Origin: Amoebophrya sp. A120
Lineage: Eukaryota; Protista; Dinoflagellata
NCBI GenBank assembly: GCA_905178155.1
Contig: CAJINV010000007.1
Coordinates: 2,089,151-2,153,150, forward strand
Direction: 5' to 3'
Length of the DNA: 64,000 nucleotides
The notes beneath the pieces were generated by a model. That model was not told where the DNA came from. It did not search any database and saw only the letters and a list, made by a program, of their open reading frames with translations. This document shows positions 1,398 to 54,950 of this stretch, in pieces (position 1 is the stretch's first letter; every line of letters begins with the position of its first letter). The position numbers and the translations under genes were made by a program.

Positions 1398-4300
1398 TCA
1401 CCACTTCATCATCTTGCCCTTTCCCTTGCCCTTGCCTTTCGATCCCTTCAAACCTCCCTTCGACCCACCTTTTCCACCCTTCATCATGCCGCCGGAGGCC
1501 TTGCCCTTGCCCATCGACATCATCTTTCCGCCCTTTCCTCCCTTGAAGGGCGGAGGCCCACCAAACGCAGGTCCTCCGTGGTACCCGCCGCCGCCCGATC
1601 CCGACGAGACCTTCGCCACAAACAAAAGCAGTCCAACGGTGATGATGCCCAAGACCACGATGACCACGATTAACACAGCGTGGTCGTGGTCGTAATCGTC
1701 GTCGTGGTTGTGCACTTCGGTCACGTCGGCGGGCCCAGGAACGCAGTCGCTTTCCTCCGTGGCGCTCGTCGCAGCACCGTCGTCTCCATCCCGTTTTAAG
1801 GACGACGACCTCCCGACCGGACACATTTTGCAGCTCGCCTGGCCCACCGTGTCTTGGTAGGTTCCGTCGGGACAGGGGATGCACCCGGTATTGTCCGAGT
1901 CCGCGCCGTATGGATTGTAAAAATGTCTGGGTCTGGAAACTTGTGATGCTGGGTGGCGTCTCATGATGAGGCTACAAATACTGGCTCAGCATGAAAAGTT
2001 TCTGAGCTCCTAGGTCTTGCCTATTCTGCATGACAAACTGCGCTTCTGCATCACTGAAAAACGGAGCTCTTGGGTAACGTGCATGACAGATTTAAGAGTC
2101 ATGCCAGACAAGCATGACAAACTTGAATTTTTCCAGACCCAGACATTTTTGCATTTGATACGCTGGTACTGAACACTCCACGGTACGGCTGGTAGTGTCC
2201 AACCGGGCAACGTTCGCACGCAATATCAAAAGGAAAAATCCCCCCGCCCCATATCAAATGGGAAGTCTGTGATGCAGGATTTGCGTACACAAATGCGCGC
2301 TGTGTTGCAATACGGCATGGCAGCCAGATCCGCAGCCTAGGGCGGGGCATTTTGGTCTACTAGTTGCTTAGCATTACAAACGGCTGTCCTATAGGCCCAA
2401 CAGCATGCCAAACCGCTCCCATAATGGCAGGGAAGCCTCTGCGTTTGTCTTCTTGCAAGACAGACGTAATTTGTGGTCTCAAATCAGCAAGACAAATTTT
2501 CGGAAGCATGCCTTTTCGATATGGGGAGGGAGGACATTTCCTCTCAATACGCAAAGCTCGTTGTCGTTGTTTTCAGAACCCCCACGTCACCCGGGTCGCA
2601 CATGCAGTTGGTCGCATCCGTCGGGCACGTGTAGCACTTCCCGGCCAGCATCTTCTTGCCGGTGGCGCACGCTTGGACAACGTTACTGATCTCATTCTGC
2701 AAAGTCGTTTTAGCGTTGTCAATATCCTCCTTCAACCCACACCGTCGAAACTTCGCGATCAAAGCCTCCAGCGTCGGGTGCTGCACGCCCGTTATCATGT
2801 GTAAAAACGTCTCCCCCCCATGCTTGTGATGCCAATGATGTACCTTCAAAAAATCAATGTCTCCTATGCGCAGACCCACTAGCACCAGCGCTTTCTCGAG
2901 ACAAAAAATATGGAGAAATTTGTCGCGCTCCAATCAAGATCGGCAAGAAACTCGATCCGTGTTCTGAAGCGACTGCCCTAGGCAACCCTCACTACACTGG
3001 ATTGTACCCGAAGAAGTAGTTCTCATGCACAAACTTCTATCTTGGCTTGCCCTCTACTTCCTCTAGCAAAACTGCAACCTTGACTATCATGGAATGTTTT
3101 TGTTCTCGAAAAGGCCACATTTTTTGGGGGAGACGTTGTTGCTCGGGATATCCGTACAGCCGGAATCGATGTACTCCTTCCCCTATCCGCTGCAAAAATA
3201 TCGCGCTCTTATCAATTCCAATTGCAGTCATGCATTACAGATCTGGTTTGCTACGATCCAGTTCAGCATCACAAACGGAAATCTAATGTCCGCTCTCATC
3301 TCTTCTGAAAAATATTGCAACGCAATATCTACCAGCGCGATACTTTTCCGATGCGTATCACTTTGTCGTAGCACTCGTTACCCGCAACGCAATCGAACCG
3401 GCCCTCGTCCAAGCAGGCGCTGGTGCCAAGGGTGGCGCCATTGTACACATCGGAAAACCCAGGATAGCTCTTCGCTCCGAGCGGTGCCGACTCTTGCAGC
3501 TGCAGCGGTTCCGGGATTTTATTGTTCGGCACCTTCACCCGAAACGAATCACCCAAGCCAATCGTGGGGAGGGTCGGGGAGCTCCGAGACCGAGAATTTT
3601 CGCAGTTGGCGCCGGCAAACAGCTGGTACCCAAAAAGGCCTCGGGCTGCCACGTCGTTAGCAGGCTTTCGTTTCATGCTGACGCTAAAATCAGCGACAAT
3701 CGTACGGGGGAACGCAGCAGCCTTTACATAGCCGCCCATAAGATATGGATTATTGGCTGCGTAAGCGGTCCCGGCAATATCCGTTCCAGAAGTAGTGAAA
3801 TCAAAGGTCGACTTAGGTGAAGCGGGGTAAGCAAAAGGTGTCGAGCAATCTTCGTCGTCGTAGAAGTGTGCCACGAGATCCAGCCCGGCATCGGTGACCG
3901 TGGCGCCCTGCGTGTACGCTCCGCCATTTTCAACAACCTGGAAGTACTTATCTTTCAAAACGAACGTTATCCACGTGTTCGTCGGATCACACCCAGCATC
4001 CGTCACCGAGACGTCGGTGGTTTCGAGACACAAATGGATCGCGATGTCGTTCCACGCGATGCAGTGTGGCACAGCTGAGATCCGCTGAAGATCCTTGATC
4101 AGCGCATCCTCGTACTGCGACTTTTTATTGCGAATTGTCGTAGCCATACCGAAGTTCAGCGTCACTGCCTCGTCCTGCGCTGCCGCCACGCCTGCCAGAT
4201 AAATTTTGTCATACACGAGGAGAGCGGTCTCATCGAACGCGGCCGCCGCAGAATACGAAGCTGTGACTGAAGCGGCGCCTGTTGCCGCTACGATGTTTAG

Positions 4301-5719
4301 GGTACTATAATCTGAAATCATAGCCGAATTTAGACCATCCGCCAGCGTCTGCGGTGTAGACATCCCTCGGAGCTTGGCCTTCAACTCTGGCATAAAATGG
4401 TTATTGTCTACCGCGTTCACGAAGGAATGAATCTGCATACAGCGGTCGTCCTCGGCGAGTTTTTCGTTCAGCAACAACTCGCCCTTCGCGCTGTCGAAGT
4501 AACCGCTCCCTAAAACCGTGACTGCAATATCCTGCTCCATCGTCAGGCGCTGCTCTTCTATCGGGGCAAGGAAGTTGATCACTTCGGCAGCGTGGTGATG
4601 GCAAGTCGCAACATCCATCACCGTCAGCGCATCTTCCCGACAAACCTGGGTGCGCTGGCTTCGCTGAGAAGCGATGCGCGGAAGAACGTAGTCGTACTGG
4701 TAGGCCGGCCCCCCCATATTCAGAATCGCCGCAGTTCCCAAGTACGAACACCCGAGCGGCAGAATATCCGAATGAACGAGCGCAGCAGCGGCGGCCCCGC
4801 CGACAAAAGTACCGCAAGTGGCCGCGTCAAAGACCTGCTTAGCCGGATCACATCTCTTCGGACCTGGAAGCTTGCGATAACCCACAGTGGGGGACCCGAC
4901 TTGTTGTGTCGCGTATTGATAGCAGATTGCGTAGTCGTATTCATCGTTCTGGCTGAATGATGCACCTGCGCGAAACTGCGTCTCCCCGGAAGTCGGGTTG
5001 TACCGGGCGAAGATGTTTTTGCTCGTGGCCTGGTCGCCCACGACCAAGGTCGAGAGAAAATTCGCCTGGGCAAGAAATCCAAAGCAGTCGGCTGTTGCCG
5101 CACTCTGAAGCAAAGCAGCGCCGTCAATAGCAGGAACGCGGGAAACCTCCAGGCCGGTTTCGCAATCGCTGCCGTAGGGGAGAACCTCCAACGGAACACT
5201 CAGTGAAACAGTGCTTGGAGAGCTGCACGTGCGACTGCGGTGACAGACGGCGTGCTGATACAGCTGCATCGTCGCCGCCGACGCTGCATTTACGAGCACA
5301 ATTTTGCTCGTGCGGGCGTCGATACGCACCGAAAAAGTTGCGGGCACAGTTAACGTGTCCTCAGCATGTGGCTCGATTCCGCGGAGTACGCTGGTGGTTC
5401 CGGAAACTTCGTCGTACAGTGCCGTAGAGCAGCTGCTCAGTACCTTCTGCAAATCCAAGTGCTGTCGCGCAAGCACCGTCGCGCTCCCCGCAACTTCCAC
5501 TTCAAACTTGTTGGCACAAGGCCGCCCAGGAGGAAGGATTTCGTAGGCACCACCCTCACACACCTGAGACCGCAAGCAGACAGAAAATTCCCCCGCCAAC
5601 GGATCGGCGCGCTTGGAAATGGAGTACCGGAACTCCCGTTCCTTGGTCGCTGGCGCTACAGGGCTTAACAATAGTAAACCTGAAAACTGCAGGACGCGTG
5701 GCTGCTGCTTTAGCTGCAT
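1398..5719 (-). CDS. 3' part (1064 codons after removing 4 introners) of a large Cys-rich type-I membrane/surface protein with TNFR/ephrin-receptor-like CPxGxYQ repeats, one TM helix and a Gly/Lys-rich tail
   Basis: ORF 3329-5719, a micro-exon at 3151-3183, and ORFs 2544-2933, 2099-2350 and 1398-1964 join in frame on removing 179+363+331+257 nt (4322-1130=3192 nt). Motifs CERCPVGHYQ and CIPCPDGTYQDTVGQASCKMCP; TM AVLIVVIVVLGIITVGLLLFV; tail GGKGGK...GKGKGK. Confidence 0.8.
1909..2160. mobile_element. Introner, family A (252 bp)
   Basis: Ends TATGGATTGTAAAAATGTCTGGGTCTGGAA ... TTCCAGACCCAGACATTTTTGCATTTGATA. Flanks CGCCG/CGCTG. Removing 257 nt gives STS-ADSDNTGC in frame. Confidence 0.9.
2224..2549. 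mobile_element. Introner, family D (326 bp)
   Basis: Ends TATCAAAAGGAAAAATCCCCCC ... GGGAGGACATTTCCTCTCAATA. Perfect direct repeat CGCAA. Join SFA-CERCP. Interior homologous to 17140-17530. Confidence 0.9.
2793..3150. mobile_element. Introner, family C (358 bp)
   Basis: Ends TATCATGTGTAAAAACGTCTCCCCC ... GGGGGAGACGTTGTTGCTCGGGATA. Repeat CCCGT/TCCGT. Join is in frame (DSGCT-x-VQHP). Confidence 0.85.
3184..3357. mobile_element. Introner, family B (174 bp); can also be read as GT-AG
   Basis: Ends TATCCGCTGCAAAAATATCGCGCT ... AGCGCGATACTTTTCCGATGCGTA. Repeat TCCCC/TCACT. Removing 179 nt restores the frame. Confidence 0.8.
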
Positions 5720-7114
5720 AGCGACAACGGTGAATCGATCGCTCTTTTACTAACTAAGTACAGCAGGCATGCTAGACCTTAAGCGCGGGCGCCCTGGATG
5801 TCCACAGGTCTAGGAAGAAACATCTATGCTAGGTAGACCAAAGGGCCATGTTCAAACTCCTGCCCTGTTTGGTAGTGCCCTCAAACTAAATCGCCATCAT
5901 GCCAGTGCCGCGAGCTGGCGTGCGCGGGCGTGATTTTTGTGAAATCACATGCTGGCACCCACCAAGAAAATGCCAGATGAGTGATAGGCAATTTGCTCAA
6001 AGGCGCACCAGCCGAACGCCAAGAAATACAAGCAACCCACAAGGGTGGCGCCTATCGATCCTTCCTGGGAAGGAACAAGGCCACCATGCCCATGCGCCTT
6101 GCTATAATTGGGTGGGCAGGCAGCAAAGCGGCCGCCACATTGGGAAAGGAAACCGGGGGCACACGGGAAGTGGGCGTGGGCGCGGGGGGGCCAAAAAGAA
6201 AAAGAAAGGGAGGGCGCGCAAACCCACCCCAAGGAAACTGGGGCCGGGGCCCGCCGGGACCTGTTTCGGGTTTACCAAATAAAACAAGAAGCCTGCGGCC
6301 ACGCCGAGACACGGCAAGCGAACCGCTAGCGCCACCGTTTTTGGCACTTTCTTTCTCTTTGGCGTTTCTATAAATATATAATTGAATTTGCCCAACTTTG
6401 CCGGAGGACTTGATTGCACAGTTAGCAGTTTTGGCTTTGGGCGGCCGCGGTCACTTTCCTGGTCGCGGGCGTCCCAAAAGAATCGAAGTAGCCGCGCGTC
6501 TGCCTTGGGAGCTGCTCGCAAATTGCAAACTGCCCGGAAGCCTCGCCCCCCAGGGTTGGGGTGGCCGTGGCCCCGGGCTTTCGTTGTACTGCTCCGAGCT
6601 GCTGTTCCAGGGCGCCCGCCACGCAGGCGCCCTGGAGTATGTCAGTGCGCTCTGCCTCTCGCCTCCTGCCTCTTGTTTCTCGCCCTTGCAGGCGTTATAC
6701 TTCTAGCACCTGGCGCCGTCGTTTCCTAGTCTACTTCCATGCATGCCTCGCATGCTACGAACTAAGAGAAAACGCTGAAGGAGCAGGTTTGGCCATGTAG
6801 CGACCACCCTCTTGGGATCGAATTCGACTACTTCCCTCTGAATGGCGGCTAGCCAGATCACGAAAAACCGAGTGACCATGGGAACTCTGCGGAGCGCGAG
6901 AACAAAACACACATCGAAGCAAGCCAAAGCCGGTGCCGGCGAGGCACCGTCTACAGCACTCTAAGCACCTCGACTAGTACATATCTGCTGTGCTTCTGTA
7001 TGCGCGCTTGATGGGTTTCGGTTTTGTGTGTTGAAGTACCCCCCGCATTGTACATAGGGTTGGTTTTTTCCTCACGACCTTTTTCTTGTCTTTCCCCCTA
7101 GGCGAGCGCTTTGT

Positions 7115-13700: not shown

Positions 13701-14362
13701 CACTGGAATGGTGATAACAAAAATCAAATCATTTGCAATTGATACTAAACGTAAACGGAAAACATTTGGTTCATACGCCTATGTTGACTATGTATCATGA
13801 AAAAAAAAAAACGTGCACATGGTGAAGAATTGTACTACAGGAGAAACAGATATACTTAGTCTGTAGCGGGGTACGCTGCGCGTACACATGTGTAATGCTT
13901 GCTTTCGAATAGGAATAAGACAAGTGTTGATTGACATTGAAATTGAATTATTTAAATTTTGGTTGTAGTGTAAGGAAAGGGAAACGACAACTCTTCGGAG
14001 TAATATAAGTACGTGAGTAATATCGACGCGGCCGCGGGTCTTAGGCTTTCGGTGAAACGCGCGAACGCACGACGCGAACTTTATAACAGATGAAAACTAA
14101 AACAGCAAAACAAACGTAAGCACAACATTCGTGCTACTTCCTGTAAATGAAACTCAAATCAAAATTTGCGCCGAGCAGATGCAGAGGTGTAAATCTAAAT
14201 ACTAGCTACTGCTAATATTCGTATGTTAAGCTGCCTGGTTCTTGATAGTCACAGTGTCTACTCTTCCTTCCTTTACTCCCGTGCTGGAATCAAAGAATTT
14301 TTGAGCAGCAGAGCAGCACCTCAAGCCGTGTTCTTGCGAAATCAATTGCTACTACGGCAGCT

Positions 14363-17300
14363 CTATGTGCTGAACATCATTTCCTCGGTTGGCCACCACT
14401 TGTCATGGTGTTCCAGCTATGCACTGCAAAAGTGTCTGGGTCTGGAAGTTGTGACGCGAACAAGAATTCTGGAGCGGACTACAAAAATCTGTATTGCGTG
14501 TCGTGTCGTGTGCAACGTGAGCGTTAAAATTACAAACTGTTTCACATCTCATGCAAACGTACGTATTAAAGACCGAGCTTCATCATCTCATCATGCAGGG
14601 CAGGCATGAAGAAGCCTTCGCCGTCAAACGATAACCCGTAAAAATGCTTGGCGTGCATGAAAATTCATCCGAGCCAGCTACATACAATTATCAATATCAT
14701 GTTCAGAAAGATGCATGACGAACAACCTCACGACTCTCACAGTTCCTGACCCAGACATTACATTTGCACGGGATACCAGCGACAAAACGGGCACCTCCGT
14801 TTTGAAGAGCTCGAACCGCAGCGCGTCCTGGTTTTCGAGCCGTTCCTTGTTAAAGTCCAGCTCCGGCTCCACCAATTCCCAGTTCAGCGGCTTCACCGGC
14901 TTCCCCTCGGAATACAACACGTTTTTGCTGCGCCCCTGCATCTGTCCAATGCAAATCTGTAGTTTGGGTCTGGAGACAACTTGTCAATCATCATGCGGAA
15001 TCTATTTTCTCTGAGGAGCACTTTAATATCTAAGTGGATCCTAGTACTAGTAGTATGGCAAGATTTATTTGCGACACTTTTTCATGATGCGAAACTACGG
15101 TGAACGCGCACTACAAACTGCGTCCTTGTATGACAAATGCAACTGCTCTCGTCTTGATAGTCGTGCTGTCGGCCGAGCGATGCTACAAGTTCAATTGATC
15201 ATGATCATGATGTTTATATATTTCCAGACCCAAATACCATAAATTTGCAGTGGATAGCTTCAGTCGATCCAGCTTGAATGTTCCGGACCTCTTCGGTTGC
15301 ATCCTCGCGACCAAGCGCGCGGAGGGCGGAGGCGAGGCGGTTTTCAGCTGTCGCGGGTTCAAGGTCTTGTACACCTCGAACGCGACGCTGTACATGTCTC
15401 CGAGCTGCTTTTCCCGGGTCGACTCAAATCCGTCGTCGTCCAAGGCTAAGGCCGTCGTGTACTGCAGCGACTCCTCAAACAGCCTTTCCTGCCGTTTGTC
15501 CTCCCTTTCCATCATCAGACGCCAGTAGACCTTGGTGGAAAACCGGTACCGATTTGTCTCCTTCAACTGGTTTTCCCGTTCCCGGGCCTCCACCACCTCC
15601 GCCGGGTCCTCGTCCGTGTCGAAATTCAGCACCAAGTAGTTGTCTGAGGAAAATCTGGCGCGGGTGACCATGTCGACCAACTCCGCGTAGGTGGGCGTCA
15701 TGTCGGGTCGGAGCGGCGGCAGCGGCTCGGGCGGCAGTTCCGGCGGTGGCACCCCGGCTTCCATGGCCTCGTCGTACGCCGTTTTCTTCAGGGCCCACTT
15801 GCTGTAATTCCGCATGTACAGCCGGGTCTCCTCCTTGTACGCTTCCAGCCGGCACATGTGGATGTACCTTCGGTACCGGAGCTCCGGGATGATGAACTTG
15901 TTGATGTCCCTCTCGGACATCAAATTTGCGGTCACTCGATCGTATCCTGTGTAAAAACGTCCCCACCTTATACATTAAGTCAAAATGCGAAATCTACATA
16001 GAAGAAAGGTCAACCAGTTTTAGCTCCTTTTGCGCATGACATAAACAGGCTGTTGCGCATGACAAATCTTGGCTCGCAGTGTAGTCGTCTTTAGCTAGTC
16101 AGCATGCAGATTTGCATTACAACTCTGGGGAGGTGGCGACGTTTTTACCAAGGATAGATCGTACCACTGCTTCTTGATGTCTGCCGCCGATTTATATTTC
16201 TGTGGCTGTTATGCATTGCAAATATGTCTGGGTCTGGAAGACTGCAGAGTTTATCATGCTCGGCCAGCATGTGCATGACTCTCAAGTCTGTCATGCGCGC
16301 CAGGCAAGCATCCCAGATTTTTGTCATGCGGAAACGCAGTTCGCCATGCAGAACAGGCAACACCTAGCAGCTCAGAAAATTGATGTAATGCGTGGCCACC
16401 AATTGGGACGTCCTCAAGACTGTCCAGCCAGCGACATCACAAGTTTCCAGACCTCCCAGACATATTTGCAACATTTCATAGCTGCTTGTTCTTCTTGTCC
16501 TGTAGCTTGGGCAGCGACGGCGTCGGCGCGCTGGGACCGTGGCGGCGGGACGTTTTTTGCGTCTTGTTGATCCACTGGGTCATGGTCAGTCCCATGTTAG
16601 ACGCTTGCTCCGCCTGGTCCAACGAGTTATCGAGCTCCGCGACCCTGGTTTGCATCATGTCGGACTTCAGCAGCTCTTCCCCGCAGACCTTCCGTTCCAC
16701 TTTCACCCACCGCTTCATCAGAACGCGAATGTAGCACCCGCGGTTGAACTTGAAGAAGCGGAAGGACCGCTGCACCGTGCGGGCGTGGTAGGAAAAGTTC
16801 ATCGCGCGAAAGAAGAACCGCTGCTCGGGGCGACAGGTCTTCTCCAGAAACTGCAGCATGATCCGCGCGCGCAGCCGCCGCCGACCGAGCTCCACCTTCA
16901 GCTTCGCTTTGGCGAGGAAGAAGAGCCAGAACGTTTTCCTCTTCGTGTTCTCCGTGAAGTATTTTTGGAGCGCGATCTTCGTCTCCAATGGGTGGGCCTC
17001 CACCTGCCGTTGCGCTTTCAAGGCGGGTAGAGACTTGATGTCGTCCGTCTGCATATCGTGGACCTTCAGCTCCTCGTTCTTCTGCAGGATTTGGAACAGC
17101 GAGCTCTGGTCCTCCTCATTGCTGTTTTCCACCTTCGCCCATCAAAAGGAAAAATGATCCCCCCTCCCCATTATATTTCAAAACGAAGTTCAAGTTTCTG
17201 ATGCTGGATTTGCATACACAATAAACGCGCTCCGTCTACTAGAAGTAAGGTATTGCGGCCAGATCCACCACCTTCACCTAGGTGGGTGCGTTTGTCGTTT

Positions 17301-20300
17301 GTGTCTAATAGAGTATAGCACTGCAAACGGCCACTGCCTCCCGCTATGCACAAAAGCATGCCAAATCGCTTCCATAATCAGGCGGAAGCATCTGCTGGCA
17401 CACTTGTCTCCTTGCAAGACATCATGTGCGTTTTTTTTGTGGCCACAAATCACCAACAACACAAATTCATTCCGAATGTTCTTGATGTGTAAGTTTTCAA
17501 TATGAGGAGGGGGGATTTTTCCTCTCAATAGCGTCACCTGCTGGATGAACTCCTTTTCCTTCTCGGACGGAAGCGCGATTTCCTCGAAATACCGTGCGGA
17601 GAGCGCCAGCTGGATGAAGACCGGCCAGGCGCGCTGCAGGGCCTTCATGCGCGCCTTCGCGTTGTCGTCGACCGGGTTCATCGGCTTCGCGTTCTCGATC
17701 GCCCACGCCCGTGCCATTTTCTTCTCGTAGTTCACCAGAATCGCGTTGCGCCAGTCTTCCACCTGGGTCAGGTATCGCTCGAACACCTCCTGGCGGTGCT
17801 GCTTCAGCGACTTCAGGTGCGTTTCCAGGTACACGGTCCGCGACTCCGGGTGCCACTTTGCGCGCAAGTTCATGCGGTTCCTGGCGATGATGAAGGTCGG
17901 CGGCTTGGTCCACACGGCGAGCGCCACGTCCACTAACTTCACCTCGTCTGTGACTTTTTGTTTTTCCTCCTTTTTCGCGACCTGCAGAAAGTCGACGTCC
18001 TCGTCATCCGAGTCCCTCCGGTAAATCACGCTCATGATTCTCGGCAGCAGGTCGTCCAGCAAGTCCTTGCACTGCCGCAGCAGGTTCTCGTTTTCCTGCA
18101 CTTCGGCGGAGAAATTGTTCAGGTCCACGCCACCGGACTTGTTGCCCTTGTTGCCCTGGAGCCGCTGCAACTCCAGGCGCTCCTCCGCCGTGTCAATTTG
18201 CAGCAGAATCTTGCTGATCCGGTAGTTCAACACTTTCGTGTCCGGCTCCAACGCGTATGCAACACAAATTTCCTGCCCGCTGCAGCACACGTACAAAATG
18301 CATCACAGATTTCGCAAATTTATATAGAGAAGTGTAAACACTTGTTGTGCAGCTGGTTAGGATCGAGGGTATAGTTTTGTCATGCAGAATAAACCGCATT
18401 TCCATATGTACAACGTGTGCCGCGGGAAAAAAAATATTTTCTTTGGATACCGTGCCCTGGTACTGAAGCTCCTTCGACACGAAGGTGTCGGAGAAAGTTA
18501 AGCTGTGGATCAAGCCCGGCGTGTCTTTGATGGCGTTCCAGTTGAACTGTTCGGTGTGGAGTAAGGATTTTTCCTGCTCCCGGTTCAGCTGCGCGACCCG
18601 CTCGGCCTCCGCCTCGGCCTCCCGCTCCTCCTTCGACAGCTTCTGCTTCTTTGGCTGCATGAAGGAGAAAAGCTGCTGCTTCTTCTGTGGTCTGCTCGTC
18701 GCCCCGGCAGTAGCTCCTGCTTTCTCGTTCTGCAAAGCCAACCGCTTCGCCTGCTCCTCCTGCTCGTACTTCATCGCCGCCAGTCCGCCCGGCTGCGGGC
18801 CGGTGAAGAGGCGCTTCGTCTGCTCCGCCTTGATGAAATTTTTCGCGTCGTACGCGACCACAAAGCTGCTGGCCACGGACTGCTGCTTCTTCTCCAGCAA
18901 GTCTTGCAGCTCCTGCTTCACGCTCGGGTGCGGTCTCTCCAGCGGCGCGCCGGTCTGCTCGTGGAAGAACTGCTTGGTGGAGTCCTGGAAGGCGGAATGG
19001 AGAAAATCCCCGAAATTCTCCACCTCATACGGTGCGGGGTGCAGCAAATCTCTGTGGTCATCAAAGTGAAAGTACAGAGGGTCGGTGTTGTTCCGGTTCG
19101 TGACGCGGGAGGACTTGCTCCTCGCGATTCTCCGGCTGCGCTCCAGGTTGGCCTGCTCGATTTTCTGGTGGAGCCTCTTGCGCAAGTACTCCAACACCGG
19201 TTCCGACACGATGGCGCGGTTCAGTTTCGAGAATTTGCTCGGCTCCGGCCGCACGTTCGCCCGCGGAAGCAGCGGCTGGAGGAGTTGCAGCGTCGGCTGC
19301 GCGGACATCTTTAAACGGTTTGCGTTTTCCTCCGTATTTTCGTCCGCGGCCTCATCATCTTCCCCGTACCGGAGTTTTAGATCCACCTTCGTCGGTACCA
19401 TGTGGTACGACCGGCCGGCGAGGTGCTGCCCCGCGAGCGCCTGGGTATCCTGGTACGCCTGGATGGCGGCCAACCCCAGATCGGCCGTCGACGTCTGGTT
19501 CAGAAAGGGCATCGTCAAACTCGCCTCCAAATTCACCCGCCGGTCGCTGTGCGCTGGGGAGGCGAGATCAAGACCATCATGATGGGGACTAGTACTACTA
19601 GTACGGAATAACAAGTCTTTATTTCGGTTGCTTTCCTCTACTTGTTCCCCGTCACTGTAACTTTGCACGCCGAAGAAACTGGTCTTGCAGTCCTTCACCT
19701 TTTTCAGCACCCGCTTCTGGTTCACGCCAAACCGGGCGGCCCGGCCGCCGGTGACCGCCGCGCGGATCGACCTTTCGTTCGGCGCGCCGATCTTCAGCTT
19801 GCCCTCGTCGTGGCCCCCGGGCTCGAGCAGGTAGGGGAGCTTTGGAATCTGCTTCGACAACCGCGGAGCGTGGATCAGGGTGCGGGACAAGTTGATCAAA
19901 AGCCGCTGCTGTTCCTGCTGTTTGTGGATGTAGTCCTGCAGAAACTCGTTCACCAGAGTTTGCTTCTCCTGTTTGGGCAGCCGGTCCAGAATCTCCGAGC
20001 GGCTAGCGATGGTCTTGTGGAAGGCATTCACTTTGGTCCCGGCGCGGTTCATGCGCAGGGTCGGCGAGCTGGCGGGGAACATGTCGACTCGGAGCGCCAG
20101 CATGTCCCGGATCAACACGTTGCAGACCTCCACGTCGCGCAGCGGCTATCCTGTGCAAAAGTATCGTAGTCGTACTAATTGCAAACATGCATGACAAATC
20201 TCCTTCCTAAGGTAAAACAGCATTACAAATTCCACTTTTCTTCTTGCCAAAATTTGTGATGCAATTTACACTAGTACGATACTTTTGCAATGCATAGCGG

Positions 20301-34700: not shown

Positions 34701-37700
34701 CAGCCGCACCCCGTCAATGCCCGCGGCTTCCGGGCTTACCCGCTGCAGGTGCTGGCGCAGCTGCTTGCCAGTCACCGTAATCGGTGGAACCCATTTGCAG
34801 GCGGCTGTCAGCTCATCGAGCATCTTGCGAAACTCCTCGCCCGAGTATGTGTGCTCCTTGCCGTTGTTTATCCGCACGTCCTCGCCTTTCAGCAAGTGCC
34901 ACGCAGCGAGATACTTTATGCACTGCTCCAAGCCTTGGACGATGTTCGGCTCATCAGGCAGACCGACGTCTAGTTCCGTCACTTGCGAAACTGGGGCGCC
35001 TCGGCCCTTTCCACGCACTTCGTCTCGTGCTTGGCGTGCGTTGGAGTAGACGTCGCCGACTAAGTCACGCTTGCCGGCCGCTTGGAAGGACGCCTCCCAC
35101 TTTGCATACATCTCGTCACTTATCTCCGCCAGCGTGCCGGGCTGTGGCTCCCCCTCTCTCTTTCGCTTCGCGCCCTTGCCTTGGGACTTGCTCCGACCGC
35201 GTTTGTTCGTTCGCCTTTGGTTTGCCCGCTCGAACAACGCGCGCATGCTGTCGCCCATCTTCTGTGGCGGCTTTGAGATGGCTTTTGCATCTAGTAGGGT
35301 GTCTTGGGCCCAACTTTGCGCGCCTACCAGTCCGACAGACGCCACGTCCGGCATTTCAGCGGCCTGGAATATCGGCTCCAGCTGCTCTTTCGGATTTGTC
35401 TTCCTTTTCCACGAGGTGATCGCTTGGAACGGGACATCTTCTGCGAAATCGGAGCGATCCTTGATGATCTTCGCCCTGCTTTCCGCCGTTTCCGTGCGTG
35501 GAACTAAGTCGGCGCGCTTCGCGTTGAACCCAAGCCGCGCGCTGGTTTGCTGTCGCTCTTGAATCCTCGGGAGCCGCTTGCGCTCTTCTTCCTCGTCAAG
35601 CGCCTGCGGCTGGCCTGTCTGGCGCCACCAGACTTTCAGCAAGATGGCAAGATGGTCCGCCTCTTGCCATCTAGGGGGCTCACCCTTCTCAAGCATAGCA
35701 CAATCATACGCGTTGCCAGTCGGTATCTGGACACGCTGGACGTCGATGTCCTTGATGTGCGCCGCGCGGCAACCCACTGCGGCTATGTCGATGCGGCGTG
35801 GGTTTTTTCCTCGGAAGCAGGTGGGGCCCCCCGGGTCCACGGCCTTGGCGTGTTTAGACACGAACTGGCCCAAGGGTTCCAGTGCGTCTTCGTAGACCGC
35901 CGCGCCCTAATTATAAAATATTCAATTACTTAGATAATTAACGAACTAGGCGCAGAGCTTGCGCGCCGAAGAGCTGCGCAAGTCCACATCGTCGCCGGCA
36001 GCTTTCCTCCGCTCCGCTTCTGGCGCTTGCGTCTTTGATGGCTGCACGCAGACCAGACGGGTGCGCGCAGATATCGCGCTCGCGCTGTCGGCCGCCTCTT
36101 CCATACAGCTTCGCGCCTGGTGCCGTCGTGCGAAGAGATGAAATTGCGCTGCGAGTAAATGGACAGAGCAAGACTGTGAGTGCGGTCTTCTCTCCATTTA
36201 ACTGCAGCGCTGTTCTCCGCTCTTGCAGCTGAAGTGGCAACTGGGAGCAACGAGCACGACATAACTCGCAGCGACGGAGCGAGTGGCGTGACGCGTCGCT
36301 TGGTCGAGGCGAGAACGACGCCAGCACGCCGCGCCACTTCTCACCGACTTCCGCACCAACTTCACGACCAACTTCGCGACCGACTTCTCACCAACTTCTT
36401 CGACAGTTTATGCATGAAAATGGTGGTGGATTTATACGAGTACGATACTTTTGCACAGGGTAACGCGGTGAGCGCGACAATACCCGCGGCGGGAGGGTCG
36501 GAAGTGTACGTCGGTGGCTGATAAGGATCATCAACAACAGCAACGTCGACAGCTGCCCTTTCTGCAGCTTCTGGTGCTGCGGCACTGTCTGCTGATGAAG
36601 CCGCTTGTTTTTTGCAGGTGTTTTTCTTGCTCAATGCCGGCACGGCCCCGAGGTACAGGATTTGCAGCCAAACAGAAGAATTATTAGCTCCATCAGGAGG
36701 AGGGCCACCAGCTTGCTCTTTGCTGACATGCTTCTTGGTCGTTCTCTTCATTTTTGACGAAGACGACGTCGAACAAGAGGATGTAGTTTTATTTGCGTCG
36801 TTAATTATGTCGGTTGCACTTCTTGTACCTCGTGGAAGTTCTGAGCCACTTCTTGTTGTGCCTGCTATTTCTTGTCCAACATCTGTCGCTATATCGAAGC
36901 AGGCCTTGCAGAATTTTCCCGCCGCGGTTTTGAAATGCGCATTGACCCGCACGCAGCACTGCAGCAATTTTGCCGCGACCATTTGGTACTTTGCAGAATT
37001 GTTGTTCAGATTGCTGTTGTTCTTCTCTCGTCCCCGTCCCACCGCGAGCCACTCGGCAAAGTTCGTTTTCTGCAACAGCAATTCCAGTAAATGTGCGTCT
37101 TTGCTGTTCGTCTGCTTGTTGTGTCCAAGGACGTCCAGGAGCCTTTGGATCACGAGCAGAACGTAGGGGTTGGAATTTGAAAATTTTATTCCCGCACTTG
37201 TTTTTCGTTTCCCGTCGCGGACAAGCTGCTCGAAAAAGGTCGTTCTGTCTTTTTCTGATGCTCCCTCCTCCGCATGATCAGGTTCGTCTTTTTCGCCTTT
37301 GCTTTCTTTCAACAGGACCTCCTTGACAAAGGTCTGCACCACTCGCACCCCGGCTTTATGCGCCGAGAAGCACGCCTCCAGAATCCTGGATCCGACCGGG
37401 CAGTTTAGCAATTCTTCACCCTTTTCCGCGATGATGACCTGGCAGAGCTGCTGCAAGAGTTGCCGCAGCTTTTTGTGCTGCTGGTTCTTCCTCAACGCCT
37501 CGCAAAAGAAATTATCTTCGTCCACACAACTAGCCGCGTCGGCGGCGATGGAAACCGCTGTGCCGATTACCGGGCCAAGCCGGGCGTCGCTGAGAGGAGA
37601 CGAAGAATACGAAGCTTTGCTGAAGGTTGCGCTAGATGAACTACTGGTACTGTTCTTGTGTCTCAATTCTGCGACCAGCTGCTGCAGTAGTTTGAAAAAA

Positions 37701-41596: not shown

Positions 41597-44500
41597 CTAC
41601 GCCATAGTACTTGCCGAAGGATTGACACTGCCCCTCTCACCTTCCTCCATCAGATGACCACGACTCTGCGCAGCGGCGAGAGTGTCTCCCCCGACCGGTG
41701 TTGTAGTAGGACTAGCGCCCAAACCTCCTCCTACAATCCCACCCAATCCCGCCGCACTCGAATCCTCTGCGGCGGAACTATGCCCGTCCACTGCTGCGTT
41801 TCTCTGCCCTCCACCCTTTGCATTTTCCTCGTTCAGTGCCTCCTGGTGCCGCGCGAAGCGAAGGAAAACTTGTTCCAGCGTCGGTTGCCCGAGGCTATAG
41901 TCCTCGATGACGCGATGCCGGTTCTCGGTGCACCACCGGAACACGGACCCAATGCGGATTTTCGGGGGCAGGGAGAGGATCACTTTGGCGCGGGACTCGG
42001 AAAACGCGTGCTCCTCCAGAATCTTGATCCTGTTTTGCTGGTGGTCCTGTTGCTGCTGCTGCGGTTGTTTCTTCTTCAACATTATTTGTGCGTCGCGTGG
42101 GGCTGATGTCTCTTGATGATCTAGTTGCTCTGCTGCAGAACCTGCTGGGCGAACACTAGAGCTACTTTCTATGTTGATGAATCCATCAGAGGAAGCAGCA
42201 GGCTTTTGTTCCTGCGATTCATCACCAAAGAGAACCGTTTGATCGCCTACTTCCTTACCCTGTTCAAGATTCCTCGTGGCTTGCGTCAACGACTGCTGAA
42301 CCAGTGCGCCGATATTCGCAGCTGTGACAATCGTGCCTCTTCCTGTACTCGTCCTGCTCTGTGTTTTATTCATCAGACTTTCGCTTGTTGTGTTGATGGC
42401 CCTAGAAGTTGTAGAAGTTGATGGCAGCAAATTGATTTTCGGTTCCTGGTTTATTTGCGAAGAACTTTTATGTTTATCTGGACTGAAGTCTAACCTAACC
42501 GGGCTGTCTGCGCTGTTCATAAAGTCCACTGCTGTTGACGACGCAGCTGCTGCCGGAGTGGAATCTTGATCTTTTTCATCGCCTTCTATGTGTCGTCCAT
42601 GGTGCGCTTGTGTAGTACTACTGTCCGCCGGTGCGAAGACGTTGTCTGCATCAGCTTTCGCCAACTCCTGATCTTCCATAAACCCTCCTTCTAAGGATGT
42701 GAACAGGAATCCGCACTCTTCCGCCGGTTTTCCGACGCAATTCGTCAAGTCCAGCAGCAATTCCAAGTGGTACCCACTCCCGTACTTGTTTTTGATGTGC
42801 AACGTGGACCCTAGGCACCGCAACTTCCCGTTGACCAGGATCCCGACCTTGCTGCACAGCGCGTCGGCTTCCTCCATGCTGTGGGTGGTCAAAATCATGG
42901 TCTGCTCACTGCTCCTGGCGTGAATCCGGTTCCACAGTAATCTCTTCGCCATCGCGTCCACACCGCAGGAGGGCTCGTCCAAATACAGCAACTCCGCGCC
43001 AGAGAGGAGGGTGCATGCAAGGGAGAGCTTCCGCTTCATTCCGCCACTGTACCCAAAAACGTTTTTATCCGCGTCTTCGGGCTGCAGACCGACCTGGCAA
43101 AGTGCTTGGCTGATAAGACGCTCGCCCGGGGTCTTGTCGAGCTCTTCTTCTTCAGAAGCTGTGCTCGTTGATGTTGTTGGGTCTTCATTCACACCGGTGC
43201 CAGAAGTCACAGTTGCTGCATGAGCTTGGTCCTCATTGTGCCAGTACGTCCCACACGCTTTCGCAAAAAAACGTAGATGCTCTCGACCGGTCAAGTGGTC
43301 CCAAAGTGCGTCAAACTGGGGGACCAGGCCCATTTTTTGGTAGATTTTCGGCAGGTCCTTGCGAATGTCAACACGTTCGTAGGGGGACGAGGAGGAGTTG
43401 TTCTCAGCTGTGGGAAAGTGAGAAGTTTCAGTTTCAGGTTGTTCTCGTGCCCGCTGGTTCTCACTTACCACCCTGTGAAGGTGCTCACCAGCAAGAACAG
43501 CGGCCTGTTCATCAGAGGCGGCGTTTCCTGGTCCGTCCGACCTCCTTACCTTCACAAAGGCAGTCCCGTCCGTGGGCGGTCGCAGTTCCCCAGTGAGCAA
43601 GGACAGCAGAGTGGTTTTCCCGGCGCCGTTTGGGCCGAGAAGCCCAAAACACTCGCCCTGCTTGATGTTCAAACTAATTCCGTCCACTGCGTAGAGCCAG
43701 TTGGCTTCTTCGGACTCCCGCACGCTACGAATGGCGGAAGGGGTAATGGTCGTCAAATTGTTCAGCATGCGCTTCAAGACGCTGTTTCTGTCCGCGCGGG
43801 GGAACCTGTGCCGGACCCCTTCTATCCGGATTGCCGCTGTCGGATCTGTATTCCGTGCAAAAGTTGTACCTTCGCACTCGAACAACTCTGACTCTGCAAC
43901 GCAGTGAAGTGCGAAAATCATACATAGAAATTGAAATAGATTTTTGTCTTTTCTTCTTTTTGTTCGCTAAAACAGCATGAGAATTATCAGAAGAACGTCA
44001 AAGGTCCAGCAAAAAATTCGCCCTGTTTTCGCGTTCACCTCCCTGCATAGAAAATTATGTGACGTCGCAAGAGCTTGTTAAACTACCGCTACTAGCGGTA
44101 GCGCCGAGCAGGGAAGCTAATAAATACAGCTTTTGCAATGCATAATCTGGATTCGCCGCATCATAGATGACATCGTCGTCGGGCTCCGCTAAAATGTTCT
44201 TTGCGCTTCCTCGTCCGCCAGCCGTTTCTGAGTGAGATTGGTCCGCCTCAGCATTACCATCCGGCACAACCGCACGCACCGGCTCGAAGACGAGCGAGCA
44301 TCTGTTCCTAAGTTGATACGCGGAGGCGATGTGGGCCTGCCGAGCTTCGCGAGCTTGCCGCCGCTGCTCATAGCGCATGCGTCGTGCCAGTTGCTCCGCA
44401 GTGTGTTCGTCCCGCCGGTCTTGTGCTGCTGAACTAGGGCGAGGACTGTCTGTAGAAGTCCCTCCTGAAGTAGATCCAGGCGCAGCTCCTGTTGAAGCTG

Positions 44501-47500: not shown

Positions 47501-50500
47501 AAACGGCCTGCACGCGGGAAAGACTCTGCTCGATGTGCTTCAGCGGGTTGGATTTTGATTTGGAAGGCTGTCTTGAGGTCTTGCTGGCATCTGCGCTGTT
47601 CGCTGTTCCGGCGGTTTTCGAGCTTGAAGAGGATGACGGCGACGAGCCGACAGCGACCCCAGCCACATGATTCGTGAACGACACAGACGCTGAAGCCTGC
47701 GTGGAGGTACCTCCAAAGGAGTACTCGGATTTTGGTGTCGTTTCAACATCGTCTTGCAGAATATTAAGCCGTCCTTCGTCTGCCAAAAGCACCTCTACAG
47801 TGAGCCAGTAGCCACAGCCAAACCTCCTTTTCAAGTCATGGCTGGTCCCGATCGCCTTCACTTGCCCCTTTGCTAGGACCACTTTTCGGTCTGCGAGGCA
47901 GTCCGCCTCCTCGAGATAGTGGGTGGAAAAGACGATGCTTCTCTTCTCTTCATTCGCCATCTCCTTCAGCAACACCCACAATTCCCGTCTGGACTGCGGG
48001 TCCATACCGCTGGTGGGCTCGTCGAGAATACACAAATCCGCGGTGCCAATCAGTGCCGTAGCGACCCAGAGCCGCCGCTTCTGTCCGCCGGACAGCTCGC
48101 AACAACGCGCGTCCATCTTGGGCAGGAGACCCAGGGCCTTCGCGTATTTCTTCACCTGGTTGTGTTGATGTCATAGTGTAGTTTTAGTACTTTTTGTTTT
48201 CTTTTTGCACGATAAAAATGTGAAGGATTAGCGCGAGCATTCTGCATCGAAAGCGCATTCAGCTGCAACCCGACCTCGGTTCGTTGCGGTTAGTACCTCG
48301 TAACGCGAAATAAGCTATCATCAACAAAAAACACACTGTATACCAGCTGTCCGACGTTTCTCTGGCCCTGCGCGGCGCCGAAGAAGGTCAAGTGCTGCCT
48401 CACCGTGAATTCCGGCCACGTGGGGTTGTCTTGCGGGCAGATGGAACAGTGCCTCCTCACACCTTCCAAGTCGTCCGCAACACTGTACCCCGCGACGGTC
48501 GCATCCCCGGAGTCCGCCCGGAGTAGTATGAAATGCAAAAATGTCTGGGTCTGGAAGAGTGCAAGTTTGTCATGCTTGTCTGGCATGACTCTTAAACCTG
48601 TCACACACGTTACCCAAGAGCTCCACTTTGCTGTCATGCAAAAACGCAGTTTGTCATGCAGAATAGGCAACACCTAGAAGCTCAAAAGCTTGTCATGCTG
48701 AGCCAGCACTTGAGGCCTCTTTATGATACGCCGCCCAGCATGACAAATTTCTAGACCCAGACATTTTTACAATCCATAAGTAGCCCGATCAAGCAATTCA
48801 CCAATGTCGTTTTCCCCGCGCCGTTGTGTCCCAGTAAGGCAAAAATCTCACCCTTGTGTACGGTGAAAGAAACCTTTATGGATGTGTCAGGATCGAAATC
48901 AACAAAATCGAAATAATTTGTGATGCATAAAATGGATACCAGTTGGAGCCTAGTTTCCAAGTGGTGCATGACAAATTTCGGGAGCAACAAAATCCAGCCT
49001 GTCATGCTGTTTCGGAAAAGAAGACTGCTCCTGTCATGCTACTCCGGCAGCGCATCGCCTTCCCTAAACAGGCTTGCAATCGGTCTCATTTGCCTGCTCC
49101 CCAATACAGGCCATATGTGCCCTACATTTTATGCATTACAAATTTTTCGATTTTGTCAATTTCGATCCTGACACTCCCATAACCTTGTCCAAAGCGGGCG
49201 CTGCCATGGAATCGAAGGACTTTTGCAGGTTCTTGATCTCTATCGAATGCAAAAATGTCTACTGGGACTGGAACATTCTAAACTTGTGATGCTGTCGCTG
49301 GATTCTAAAAACATTTGTATTGCATGACCAGCAAGAGGACTCCAGTTTGTGCTACGCGGAGAGGGCATTTCTCATGCGGTAGAGGTATCGCAATGCCCTC
49401 TAAAAATCAGTGATGCTACGGCATGCATCACAGACGTCATGGCTCATGGAAAATATGCATGACAAATCTAGAAATCTTCCAGACCCAGACATTTTTGCAT
49501 TTGATAATCTCCAGAATCGCGGGCGCCGAGGTTGTCGTTGCGCTGGAGGACAGACCGGAACCAGAACTTCTACCCGACACGGATGAACCTGCAGCGCCTG
49601 TTGCGGCAGTACTCGTTGCAGTTGTGCCTGTTACCATCGGAGCAGGTTGTAACAAATTTTGTTGTACACCAACCCCGTTAGCGTCACCAACACGTTCAGA
49701 TCCTCCACCCCAACTTAACCTTCGGCACAAAAAATTTACGCAGCTCGCGTACATACTGCCGAACCGCAACACGTCGAAAAAGTTTTTTTTCCTTGCGCCG
49801 TACTCTCCTTGCCAGCGATTGTCCACGAAAATCGCCATCCGGTAGTAGAAGAAGACAGACAAGGTGAGGGAAAAGAGCAACCAGGAATAGGGCAGCGTCC
49901 CGGGTGGCTCGGAGTCCAACACCTCCCAAAATCCGTCGTTGCCAAAGGCCAGCGGGACGCCGGCGGTGATGATCTCGTTCTTTGAAGAATCTGTAGTTGG
50001 CAATGGAGTTCTTGCAGGAGTTCCGCTTCCTTCAGTTGATGTTGACCACGACGTTGCATTACTTTTTCTACCGTGCGCCCGCGCAATCGCGGATTCGGCG
50101 GCGATTTTTCCCTCTCTCAGGAAGTCGGATACGTGCTTCACCGTGTTCTGCACCGGCTGGCTGTTCCACCGGTCGATGAGGTCCTGCGGGGTTGGGAATC
50201 TCCCGGACGCCGCCATCTGTTCGTTCAAAGACCAAAGCTGTTCCTGCACGGTGTCGACCACCGGGAGAAACGCGGCGCCCGCCGTGGGGCTGCACAACCT
50301 CGACAAGATGTGCGAGAAGCAGAAGTTCGGGAGGAAGACGCAGTTGAAAACAGCGAAAACGAAACCCATCTGCTCGAAGCCCAAGGCGTCGACGATGTCC
50401 TTTTGGTTCAGCGTTACCGTGGTCGAAATCCCCTGGGCCAGCATCAGGCTCGCGGAAGCTGCGATAGATGCGGATCGCGCCCGGTCGAACACCACGGACA

Positions 50501-51171
50501 ACACGCAGGCGAAGCCGATCAACGCGGCGTACTGCCCCGTGAAGACGAAGAAGACCAGAAGCAGATTCGAGGCCTGAAACAAACTGGTGCAGTACGCGAG
50601 CACGGCCATGAGGACCAGGACGCACAGGGCCGCGTAGGAACCGTAGCACAGCAGCCACCCGAGCCAGTAGTTCTGGGGTGTGTTGTATGCATTGCAAAAG
50701 TAAAAGCGTCGTACGTACGTATGAATCGCATGACAAATTTTATTGCCAAGAGCAAAAATGGAATCCGAATTTGCCATGCTGGAAAAGGTAGACGCAGATA
50801 TCTGTCAACATGCTGCATGACGGCGATTTATCCGAGTACGAGACTTTTTCTTTTGCAAAGGATATGATGCCGTAGATGTGCATGACTTCCTTCATTTTCG
50901 TCTCCTTCTCCCCGACAATGTCCACGACGATGCACTGCACCATGGAGAACATCGCAAAAACGAGGTAGACCGGGAGCAAAACGCTGAGCTGGTCCAAAAC
51001 CATGGCATTCGTCATTTTGTAAATCGCAACAATCGGCAGGCAGGAAAAAACGATGGACACGAGGAGGGTCCGAATCCGTTTCCGCTCCCACCCGAGAAAG
51101 AGATTCTTCTGGTACAGAACGACCTGCTGCCTGCCGAAGCAGGCGAGACGCTCCACGAGGGCTACTTGCAT
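41597..51171 (-). CDS. ABCA: Full-size ABC transporter, subfamily A (~2687 aa; 5 introners and one GT-AG intron at 48156-48343)
   Basis: NBD1 GEIFALLGHNGAGKTT, LSGGQKRRL, ILDEPTSGMD. NBD2 GECFGLLGPNGAGKTT, YSGGMKRKL, LDEPSCG. Also EKETKMKEVM, TSLEEVF and TLEQVF. 9575-1511=8064 nt, in frame. Confidence 0.93.
43849..44144. mobile_element. Introner, family B-like (296 bp)
   Basis: Ends TATTCCGTGCAAAAGTTGTA ... TACAGCTTTTGCAATGCATA. Perfect repeat ATCTG. Join AANPD-PTAAIRIEGV. Confidence 0.88.
48527..48778. mobile_element. Introner, family A (252 bp), an inverted copy of 1909-2160
   Basis: Ends TATGAAATGCAAAAATGTCTGGGTCTGGAA ... CTAGACCCAGACATTTTTACAATCCATA. Perfect repeat AGTAG. Join GKTTLVNCLIGLL-RADSG restores the ABCA post-Walker-A spacing. 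Confidence 0.95.
48877..49181. mobile_element. Introner with ~58-bp TIR (305 bp)
   Basis: Left end TATGGATGTGTCAGGATCGAAATCAACAAAATCGAAA...; its near reverse complement ends ...GATCCTGACACTCCCATA. Perfect repeat ACCTT. Join ALDKV-SFTVHKGEIF. Confidence 0.95.
49241..49506. mobile_element. Introner, family A (266 bp)
   Basis: Ends TATCGAATGCAAAAATGTCT ... AGACCCAGACATTTTTGCATTTGATA. Perfect repeat ATCTC. Join PAILEI-KNLQKSF. Confidence 0.93.
50686..50864. mobile_element. Introner, family B (179 bp)
   Basis: Ends TATGCATTGCAAAAG ... CTTTTGCAAAGGATA. Repeat TGTTG/TGATG. Join MHIYGI-TPQNYWLGW matches the ABCA motif. Confidence 0.9.
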
Positions 51172-54680: not shown

Positions 54681-54686
54681 AATCGT

Positions 54687-54950
54687 TATCAACTGTAAAA
54701 ATGTCTGGGTCTGGAAGGATGCGAACTTGTGATGCGCATTTCACAACACAGACAAATCTCTCATGCATAGGCAGCAAAAGGCGCCCATTTCCTGTCACCA
54801 AAATGCGGGATTTGTCATGCGGATTAAGCAATGCGGAAGCTTCTCGAAATCTGTGATGCTAGGGCTTCCATGACAGACATTTTGTGTCATGCAGAAACAG
54901 CATGACAAAAGTCTGCATTTTTCCAGACCCAGACATTTTTACATTTGATA
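54687..54950. mobile_element. Introner, family A (264 bp), in the probable 5' UTR of the FAM227 gene
   Basis: Ends TATCAACTGTAAAAATGTCTGGGTCTGGAA ... TTCCAGACCCAGACATTTTTACATTTGATA. Perfect repeat ATCGT. Confidence 0.92.

What the first reader, a model, noticed from the sequence alone, without database searches (positions are those of the whole stretch)
1909..54950. System of 18 TAT...ATA inverted-repeat elements with 5-bp duplications acting as seamless non-canonical introns
Seen: 18 insertions share one structure: a 5-bp direct repeat, TAT, a TIR, ATA, then the same 5 bp (four have a single substitution in a terminal trinucleotide). In all 17 coding cases, removing the element plus one repeat copy restores the frame, including conserved ABCA and NOP9 motifs. 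Sliding the junction inside the repeat gives GT-AG for only two of them (3184 and 48877). Known: non-canonical IR/DR introners were reported in Amoebophrya (Farhat et al. 2021, BMC Biol), so the class is not new. Inference: the strict 5-bp TSD and shared termini point to a single unidentified transposase, and to removal guided by structure or termini rather than by standard splice sites.
Basis: partly seen in the sequence, partly recalled or inferred. Interest (0 to 1): 0.85.

Follow-up and report, generated by a model that had tools for sequence, protein, structure and literature searches.

The report
Parasite's transposon introns lacking splice signals
These are already-described mobile DNA pieces of the marine parasite Amoebophrya that sit inside genes and are cut cleanly out of the RNA without the usual GT-AG signals; what is added here is where the cut falls, and a hint that only one end base likely matters.

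Summary
Real, and already published: the TAT...ATA introner elements of Amoebophrya sp. A120 (Farhat 2021). I count 19, not 18. The 5-bp duplication is perfect in only 10 of 19. In spliced transcript contigs all 11 elements tested are missing, with 5 nt extra each (exact for 3, by sums for 8); DNA contigs keep them. Mismatched duplications place the cut inside the duplication, after its 3rd or 4th base if the register is uniform. At 3184 the available GT-AG slide is not used. In 259 strand-assigned relatives from another assembly plus this window, the first T never varies at the transcript's 5' end, while its 3' mirror varies 11 times (p=0.001; 0.012 if one doubtful strand call flips). This fits an N-U donor read by a relaxed spliceosome, with the hairpin likely setting the 3' site (inferred). 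The one large copy (6.6 kb, in NOP9) holds a decayed LINE-like reverse transcriptase, not a transposase. No transposase was found.

The parts
1909..2160 (-). introner, 252 bp, repeat CGCCG/CGCTG (4/5)
   Evidence: absent from transcript contig by sum
2224..2549 (-). introner, 326 bp, repeat 5/5
   Evidence: absent from transcript contig by sum
2793..3150 (-). introner, 358 bp, repeat 4/5
   Evidence: absent by sum
3184..3357 (-). introner, 174 bp, repeat 3/5, transcript 5' end TAC; GT-AG slide possible but not used
   Evidence: transcript piece starts at 3358 with 0 other letters, so at least 3 repeat bases come from the upstream copy (24, 81)
14418..14775 (-). introner, 358 bp, repeat 5/5
   Evidence: absent by sum
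14943..15256 (-). introner, 314 bp, repeat 4/5, transcript 3' end ACA
   Evidence: cut after at least the 3rd repeat base
15943..16156 (-). introner, 214 bp, repeat 5/5
   Evidence: absent by sum
16210..16480 (-). introner, 271 bp, repeat 4/5
   Evidence: absent by sum
17140..17530 (-). introner, 391 bp, repeat 3/5, transcript 3' end ATG
   Evidence: 396 nt skipped exactly; cut after base 2-4 of the repeat (24, 81)
18256..18449 (-). introner, 194 bp, repeat 3/5
   Evidence: 199 nt skipped exactly; cut after base 2-4
20147..20296 (-). introner, 150 bp, repeat 5/5; same end family as the 6.6-kb element
   Evidence: 155 nt skipped exactly
26008..26253 (-). introner, 246 bp, repeat 4/5, transcript 3' end ATT
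   Evidence: no RNA evidence obtained
29839..36462 (-). large element, 6624 bp, repeat 5/5, about 38-bp inverted ends (92.5% over 40 nt), inside the NOP9-like coding sequence
   Evidence: the public 1152-aa gene model P0009 reads across it; no RNA evidence obtained here
32166..35900 (-). decayed LINE-like endonuclease/reverse-transcriptase coding region inside the large element, in three pieces with two frame breaks
   Evidence: model matches LINE-1 ORF2p and R2
43849..44144 (-). introner in ABCA gene, 296 bp, repeat 5/5
48527..48778 (-). introner in ABCA gene, 252 bp, repeat 5/5
48877..49181 (-). introner in ABCA gene, 305 bp, repeat 5/5; GT-AG possible after the 3rd repeat base
49241..49506 (-). 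introner in ABCA gene, 266 bp, repeat 5/5
50686..50864 (-). introner in ABCA gene, 179 bp, repeat 4/5
54687..54950 (-). introner, 264 bp, repeat 5/5, likely in a 5' UTR

Best explanation
These are the published Amoebophrya A120 introners: inverted-repeat elements with a 5-bp duplication that stay in the DNA and are removed from the mRNA with five extra bases, cut inside the duplication, likely by a relaxed spliceosome that reads the element's first T as the donor's second base and likely uses the terminal hairpin instead of an AG. Shown: presence in DNA, absence from transcripts, element+5 length, cut inside the repeat. Inferred: the cut keeps four bases of the upstream copy (intron = N-TAT...ATA-NNNN), which makes the donor look like the genome's own GTA-type donors minus the G; because both ends begin with TAT, an insertion in either orientation would be spliceable. 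Inferred, not shown: mobilisation in trans by an unidentified, probably integrase-like DDE enzyme.
For: Transcript contigs of run X3 skip exactly element+5 at 3 junctions and the summed element+5 at 8 more; X3 has no depth in three intergenic bins and one contig edge falls at a canonical acceptor, while DNA run X1 has even 26-30x depth and contigs that run through elements. Mismatched repeats give a cut after base >=3 (3184, 14943), 2-4 (17140, 18256), >=1 (16210), and >=2 (1909, from a piece edge only). First T unchanged at the transcript 5' end in 259 of 259 strand-assigned relatives and 19 of 19 here; mirror base changed 9 and 2 times. Position 3 shows no such bias (4 v 4; 6 v 4 with the window), which argues against a strand-biased mutation effect. 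No enrichment of G at the +1 position (84 of 259, 32%, against 29% G in exons) or of AG at the matching 3' position (20 of 259). Seven GT donors picked by eye in the window all begin GTA. Published boundaries of A120 family 2 are 69% N-T donors (PMC12130899 supplement file 8). 17 of 18 short elements fold their two ends together. A120 keeps most spliceosome proteins but U1 snRNA was not found (PMC7789003 section 10).
Against: No lariat, branch point or dependence on the spliceosome was observed. RNA evidence is from assembled contigs of one run whose RNA label is a guess and which may be the source of the published annotation; contigs hide minor junctions. Only six junctions inform the register and they allow base 3 or 4; 48877 offers GT-AG after base 3. 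The same published family also shows 68% A-N acceptors, so its annotation straddles two registers and does not decide. The polarity rests on 11 substitutions and on strands inferred from a codon model; one of them (L005:1359) disagrees with its locus majority, and 95 of 354 relatives had no confident strand and were left out. No transposase was found.
Confidence: 0.6

Rival explanations
1. A spliceosome-independent, structure-guided cut-and-join system (as proposed for euglenid nonconventional introns) removes the hairpin at a fixed distance from its stem.
For: Neither G at +1 nor AG is selected. Ends pair in 17 of 18 short elements. U1 not found in A120. Euglenid introns with paired ends leave as circles (review PMC11282704, passages).
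Against: A purely structural read-out predicts symmetric tolerance of end changes; the first position is tolerated only at the 3' end (0 v 11). Positions 4-7 pair poorly (0.38-0.76). The invariant base falls where a spliceosomal +2 U would.
Confidence: 0.25
2. The spliceosome removes them, but the cut point varies from element to element inside the repeat, taking whichever near-canonical bases are at hand.
For: Farhat's Fig. 3 legend calls the sites variable relative to the hairpin. Published boundary counts are mixed. The six constraints here do not force one position.
Against: At 3184 a perfect GT-AG is available and not used; at 14943 an AG acceptor is available and not used. All six constraints overlap at base 3-4.
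Confidence: 0.11
3. The elements are removed from DNA in one life stage (like ciliate IESs), and the element-free contigs are DNA.
For: Transposon-like ends; the RNA label of run X3 is a guess.
Against: X3 depth follows genes and drops to 0 in three intergenic bins, and a contig edge falls at a canonical acceptor; X1 keeps the elements at even depth.
Confidence: 0.03
4. The 6.6-kb copy is the autonomous parent and the family moves by its reverse transcriptase.
For: It has family ends and a perfect 5-bp repeat and holds an RT-like coding region. No inner target duplication or poly(A) marking a nested insertion was found.
Against: The coding region is broken and lacks the first 236 profile positions. 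Four of its 8 relatives are from strain AT5.2, whose introns are reported 99.98% canonical. RT and integrase domains turn up inside members of several A120 families. A fixed 5-bp repeat with inverted ends is not what LINE insertion makes (established knowledge).
Confidence: 0.04

Closest known systems
Amoebophrya A120 introner elements (Farhat et al. 2021, PMC7789003)
   Same: Same genome (P0009 is 100% identical); ends TAT + 7 variable nt + AAA; 5-bp direct repeats; inverted repeats 1-5 nt from the splice sites; non-canonical boundaries; no transposase known.
   Different: That analysis kept introns of 40-1000 bp, so the 6.6-kb copy was outside it. The text read leaves the cut position open; here it is bounded to base 3-4 of the repeat and a 5'/3' asymmetry is measured.
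A120 introner families of Gozashti et al. 2025 (PMC12130899), including family 38 (about 810 bp; '5-bp TSD, TA/TA termini', filed under Ginger in the supplement)
   Same: TIR DNA elements of 150-390 bp, 5-bp repeats noted for some, integrase-like homology offered as a lead for the mobiliser.
   Different: No sequences were compared, so no element here is assigned to a numbered family. The main text says family 38 lacks Ginger termini and TSDs.
Euglenid nonconventional introns
   Same: Paired ends, repeat-like junctions, no GT-AG, likely MITE origin.
   Different: Different terminal consensus; excised as circles, which was not testable here.
Introners of Polarella and Symbiodinium (Roy et al., bioRxiv 10.1101/2020.10.14.339549) and of Micromonas/Aureococcus
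   Same: TIR elements whose splice sites lie partly in the target duplication; Polarella class 12 has a 5-nt repeat and uses the element's first base as intron base 2.
   Different: Those need G at +1 and AG from the target, which restricts usable sites; here neither is selected.
APE-type non-LTR retrotransposons (LINE-1 ORF2p, R2 RT fold), for the cargo of the large copy
   Same: Top 13 fold matches are LINE-1 ORF2p or R2 (best E 1.2e-5); relatives carry an endonuclease domain and RT-like motifs.
   Different: No Pfam RT match; only 8 relatives among 1.84 billion, 7 named Amoebophrya; this copy is broken.

Membership tests
Amoebophrya A120 introner element | End motif TAT + 7 variable nt + at least three A | tested here: met
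   Of 38 ends: T/A/T in 36/37/36; A at 11-13 in 35/35/36; 48877 lacks the A run
Amoebophrya A120 introner element | Direct repeat of 3-5 nt at the boundaries | tested here: met
   5 nt; 10 perfect, 6 at 4/5, 3 at 3/5 of 19
Amoebophrya A120 introner element | Removed from RNA at non-canonical boundaries | tested here: met
   11 of 11 in 1300-21000; 8 others not tested
Amoebophrya A120 introner element | Repeated in the genome | tested here: met
   Summed word depth in DNA run X1 up to 185,855 over elements against about 26 elsewhere (not a copy number); 67-91% identical relatives in JACKZZ01 contigs
Amoebophrya A120 introner element | Host is strain A120 | tested here: met
   P0009, 100% identity, named A120
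MITE / non-autonomous TIR transposon | Inverted ends and fixed-length target duplication | tested here: met
   249 of 311 perfect at length 5, 2 at length 4, 0 at length 6
MITE / non-autonomous TIR transposon | Cognate autonomous element with a transposase | tested here: inconclusive
   None in the window or in 564 kb of loci up to 10 kb long; whole genome not held
MITE / non-autonomous TIR transposon | Empty orthologous site | tested here: inconclusive
   No orthologous exon among the 40 longest matches to fetched loci; ABCA homologues read through at protein level
Ginger / Ginger2-Tdd | TGTNR termini | tested here: not met
   Ends are TAT; definition from PMC2836005 passages
Ginger / Ginger2-Tdd | 4-bp duplication (5 bp in TDD-4/5) | tested here: inconclusive
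   5 bp fits Tdd only
Ginger / Ginger2-Tdd | Gypsy-like integrase | tested here: not met
   No integrase match in the large copy
U2 spliceosomal intron | GT-AG ends | tested here: not met
   Possible for 2 of 19 here and 16 of 259 relatives; excluded at 3184
U2 spliceosomal intron | Conserved +2 U | tested here: inconclusive
   5' terminal T invariant, 0 v 11, but it is +2 only if the cut is after repeat base 4
U2 spliceosomal intron | Branch point and lariat | not testable with these tools
   No raw reads of this organism; X9 laid 3 reads
Euglenid-type nonconventional intron | Pairing of the two ends | tested here: met
   17 of 18 short elements; z -1.2 to -10.1 against 15 shuffles each
Euglenid-type nonconventional intron | Excision as a full-length circle | not testable with these tools
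   Needs RNase R-treated RNA
Non-LTR retrotransposon (cargo at 32166-35900) | RT of LINE/R2 fold | tested here: met
   model mean pLDDT only 51.6, TM 0.25-0.31
Non-LTR retrotransposon (cargo at 32166-35900) | Own target duplication and 3' tail | tested here: inconclusive
   Only 9-12-nt repeats between the arms, none clearly bounding it
Non-LTR retrotransposon (cargo at 32166-35900) | Intact endonuclease-RT frame | tested here: not met
   Three pieces, N-terminal part unmatched

The most novel reading that the evidence does not exclude
A120 splices tens of thousands of transposons by one rule, N-TAT...ATA-NNNN: a U1-less spliceosome that needs only a U at +2 and measures the 3' site four bases beyond an RNA hairpin, with no G, no AG and no length limit up to at least 6.6 kb. 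Any element with these ends is then born a perfect intron at any site and in either orientation, and can hide whole retroelements inside essential genes.
Probability: 0.35. Interest if true: 0.75.

Novelty: already known. Interest (0 to 1): 0.35.

Why it matters
The elements are published; how they are removed is not, in the papers found. Two cheap handles on that open question come out of this window. Mismatches between the two copies of the duplication map the cut site, which aligners cannot do on perfect repeats. Strand-resolved end substitutions show which bases the machinery reads. Both can be run genome-wide on existing data. If the rule holds, it explains how these elements invaded coding sequence without cost and defines a minimal splice signal.

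Tried and rejected
Raw RNA reads of run X9 (same species label): 3 reads laid, not this organism; X5 did not cover the host genes. No RNA or DNA lay was obtained for 25600-39600, and none was made for the ABCA region, so the large element and seven others rest on reading frames and, for NOP9, on the public gene model. No whole genome and no handle for the JACKZZ01 contigs. Viral contigs: 0 matches for the main end motif, 2 lone matches for the second, taken as chance. Large paired copies in fetched loci: 3 weak candidates, none with a long frame. A G bias in the repeats of the window (by eye) was not seen in 259 relatives. Pfam, PDB sequence search and Rfam gave nothing for the RT region or window. 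The ABCA gene's own annotated protein was not retrieved. ESM Atlas did not answer. One search compared an alignment with one of its own members and is uninformative. Roy 2023 Curr Biol was not held. No earlier findings of this scan.
Full report
Observation. Three scans of rising tolerance and reading the sequence give 19 elements between 1909 and 54950: 18 of 150-391 bp and one of 6624 bp. All have TAT...ATA ends (five with one substitution) and inverted repeats. The flanking 5-mers match perfectly in 10, at 4/5 in 6 and at 3/5 in 3. All host genes are on the minus strand. Removing element+5 nt joins frames of 1056, 2197, 1083 and 1049 aa, and 627+2090 aa for ABCA. Four of five ABCA junctions align without a gap at the junction to homologues. 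Element 54687 is likely in a 5' UTR.

Source and prior art. The NOP9-like exon matches one protein, 100% identical, named Amoebophrya sp. A120. Farhat 2021 (PMC7789003; seen: abstract, sections 10, 11, 12, 16, 32, passages, supplement legends and Table S4/S7 rows; figures not seen) describes A120 inverted repeats as TAT, seven less-conserved bases and three or more A, with direct repeats of 3-5 nt, 29,850 repeated introns, no transposase and no U1 snRNA found. Supplement legends mention 5-bp repeats and inverted repeats 1-5 nt from the splice sites. Figures S19-S25 could hold more on the cut position than I could see. Gozashti 2025 (PMC12130899; seen: passages and all 58 A120 rows of supplement file 8; files 13-14 not searched) lists most as TIR DNA elements of unknown superfamily, one with '5-bp TSD, TA/TA termini' and LTR-element homology. 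The class and this genome's members are therefore known.

RNA test. Four runs were laid on 1300-21000. DNA run X1 has 26-30x depth in single-copy bins and contigs that cross elements. Run X3 (RNA is a guess) follows genes, has zero depth in three intergenic bins, and gives two long minus-strand contigs. The skipped lengths are 155, 199 and 396 nt at single elements and 495, 682 and 1130 nt at groups, each equal to the element lengths plus 5. So 11 of 11 are removed. The raw-read run was another organism, and X5 did not cover these genes. X1 and X3 may be the data behind the published assembly, so they confirm the structure but are not independent of it.

Where the cut falls. Where the two repeat copies differ, the transcript shows which was kept. 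In transcript orientation the mRNA keeps at least 3 upstream bases at 3184 and 14943, 2-4 at 17140 and 18256, at least 1 at 16210, and at least 2 at 1909 (piece edge only). A common cut would lie after base 3 or 4. The GT-AG slide at 3184 needs a cut after base 1 and is excluded; so is the AG acceptor at 14943.

Related elements. A call blind to the flanks found 311 elements, 249 with a perfect 5-bp repeat; no other length came near; shuffles gave none. Ends pair at positions 1-3 (0.96-0.99) and from 8 on, poorly at 4-7. The sample is biased to the seed family. A union of two callers gave 354 elements, 259 with a confident strand from a codon model trained on this window; local calls agreed with the locus majority in 223 of 228. 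The first T was never changed at the transcript's 5' end and its mirror was changed 9 times at the 3' end; with the window, 0 v 11, p=0.001. Stricter strand cut-offs give 0 v 7 (p=0.016); flipping the one doubtful call gives 1 v 10 (p=0.012). Position 3 shows no bias (6 v 4). G before the element (84 of 259) is at exon background, AG after four bases is rare (20 of 259), and GT-AG is possible at any slide in 16 of 259.

Mechanism. Shown: DNA keeps the element; RNA loses element+5; the cut is inside the repeat. Inferred: with the cut after base 4 the intron begins N-T-A-T, like the window's GTA-type donors (7 picked by eye) without the G, and the invariant T is the +2 U that spliceosomes read (established knowledge). 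The 5' variants seen are TAC (6) and TGT (1). The 3' site has no sequence signal and lies four bases past ATA, so the hairpin (17 of 18 fold) is the likely ruler. Published boundaries are 69% N-T donors but also 68% A-N acceptors for the largest family, so they are compatible but do not decide. A non-spliceosomal, euglenid-like route (review PMC11282704, passages) remains the main rival.

The large copy. 29839-36462 has ends of the same family as 20147 and 50686 and a perfect repeat, and the public 1152-aa NOP9 model reads across it. Inside is no transposase but a coding region in three pieces with 8 relatives among 1.84 billion proteins, 7 named Amoebophrya, 4 of them strain AT5.2. Relatives carry an endonuclease domain. 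A low-confidence model (pLDDT 51.6) matches LINE-1 ORF2p and R2 in its top 13 hits. A nested or captured, decayed LINE-like element is the simplest reading; its own borders were not found.

Other papers. PMC9860276, PMC12005148, PMC2836005 and bioRxiv 10.1101/2020.10.14.339549 were seen as passages; the tunicate papers only as search listings. Searches found no paper on the removal mechanism in A120; subscription journals are mostly not covered.

Verdict. A real, well-supported feature that is already in print for this genome. The added value is a bounded cut site, an unused GT-AG, a 5'-specific invariant base and a 6.6-kb member with retroelement cargo. Interest 0.35.

Noticed in passing
window:39950-41365: About 1.4-kb array of short GTAGCCTACG-type units between the NOP9 and ABCA genes, preceded by a few degenerate spaced repeats.
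   Followed up: no
interiors of the 18 short elements: Shared heptamers across unrelated end families: CATGACA 13 and TGTCATG 13 times in 4.8 kb against 5 and 3 in 51 kb outside; candidate binding sites for a transposase or splicing factor.
   Followed up: partly
window:30228-30392 and 29890-29980, 36340-36400: A 171-nt imperfect palindrome and CACCAACTT repeats in the same orientation in both arms of the large element; not seen in 38 short relatives of that end family.
   Followed up: partly
window:516, 11214, 11306, 13744, 13793, 48316, 61798, 61977: Unpaired matches to the end profile, possibly decayed elements or chance.
   Followed up: no
window:7213-9183 and 9841-12468: Signal in transcript-like run X3 where the window has no frame of 300 aa; short exons, UTRs or non-coding RNA.
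   Followed up: no
P0001-P0008: An endonuclease + RT family known only from Amoebophrya here, too divergent for Pfam's RT model.
   Followed up: partly
L003-L078 (JACKZZ01 contigs): Another assembly dense in the same element families, up to a dozen per 10 kb; element length mod 3 is unbiased (95/72/92).
   Followed up: partly
window:30919-31001: An 84-nt stretch inside the large element is 87% identical to L024:752-830; a further small repeat.
   Followed up: no
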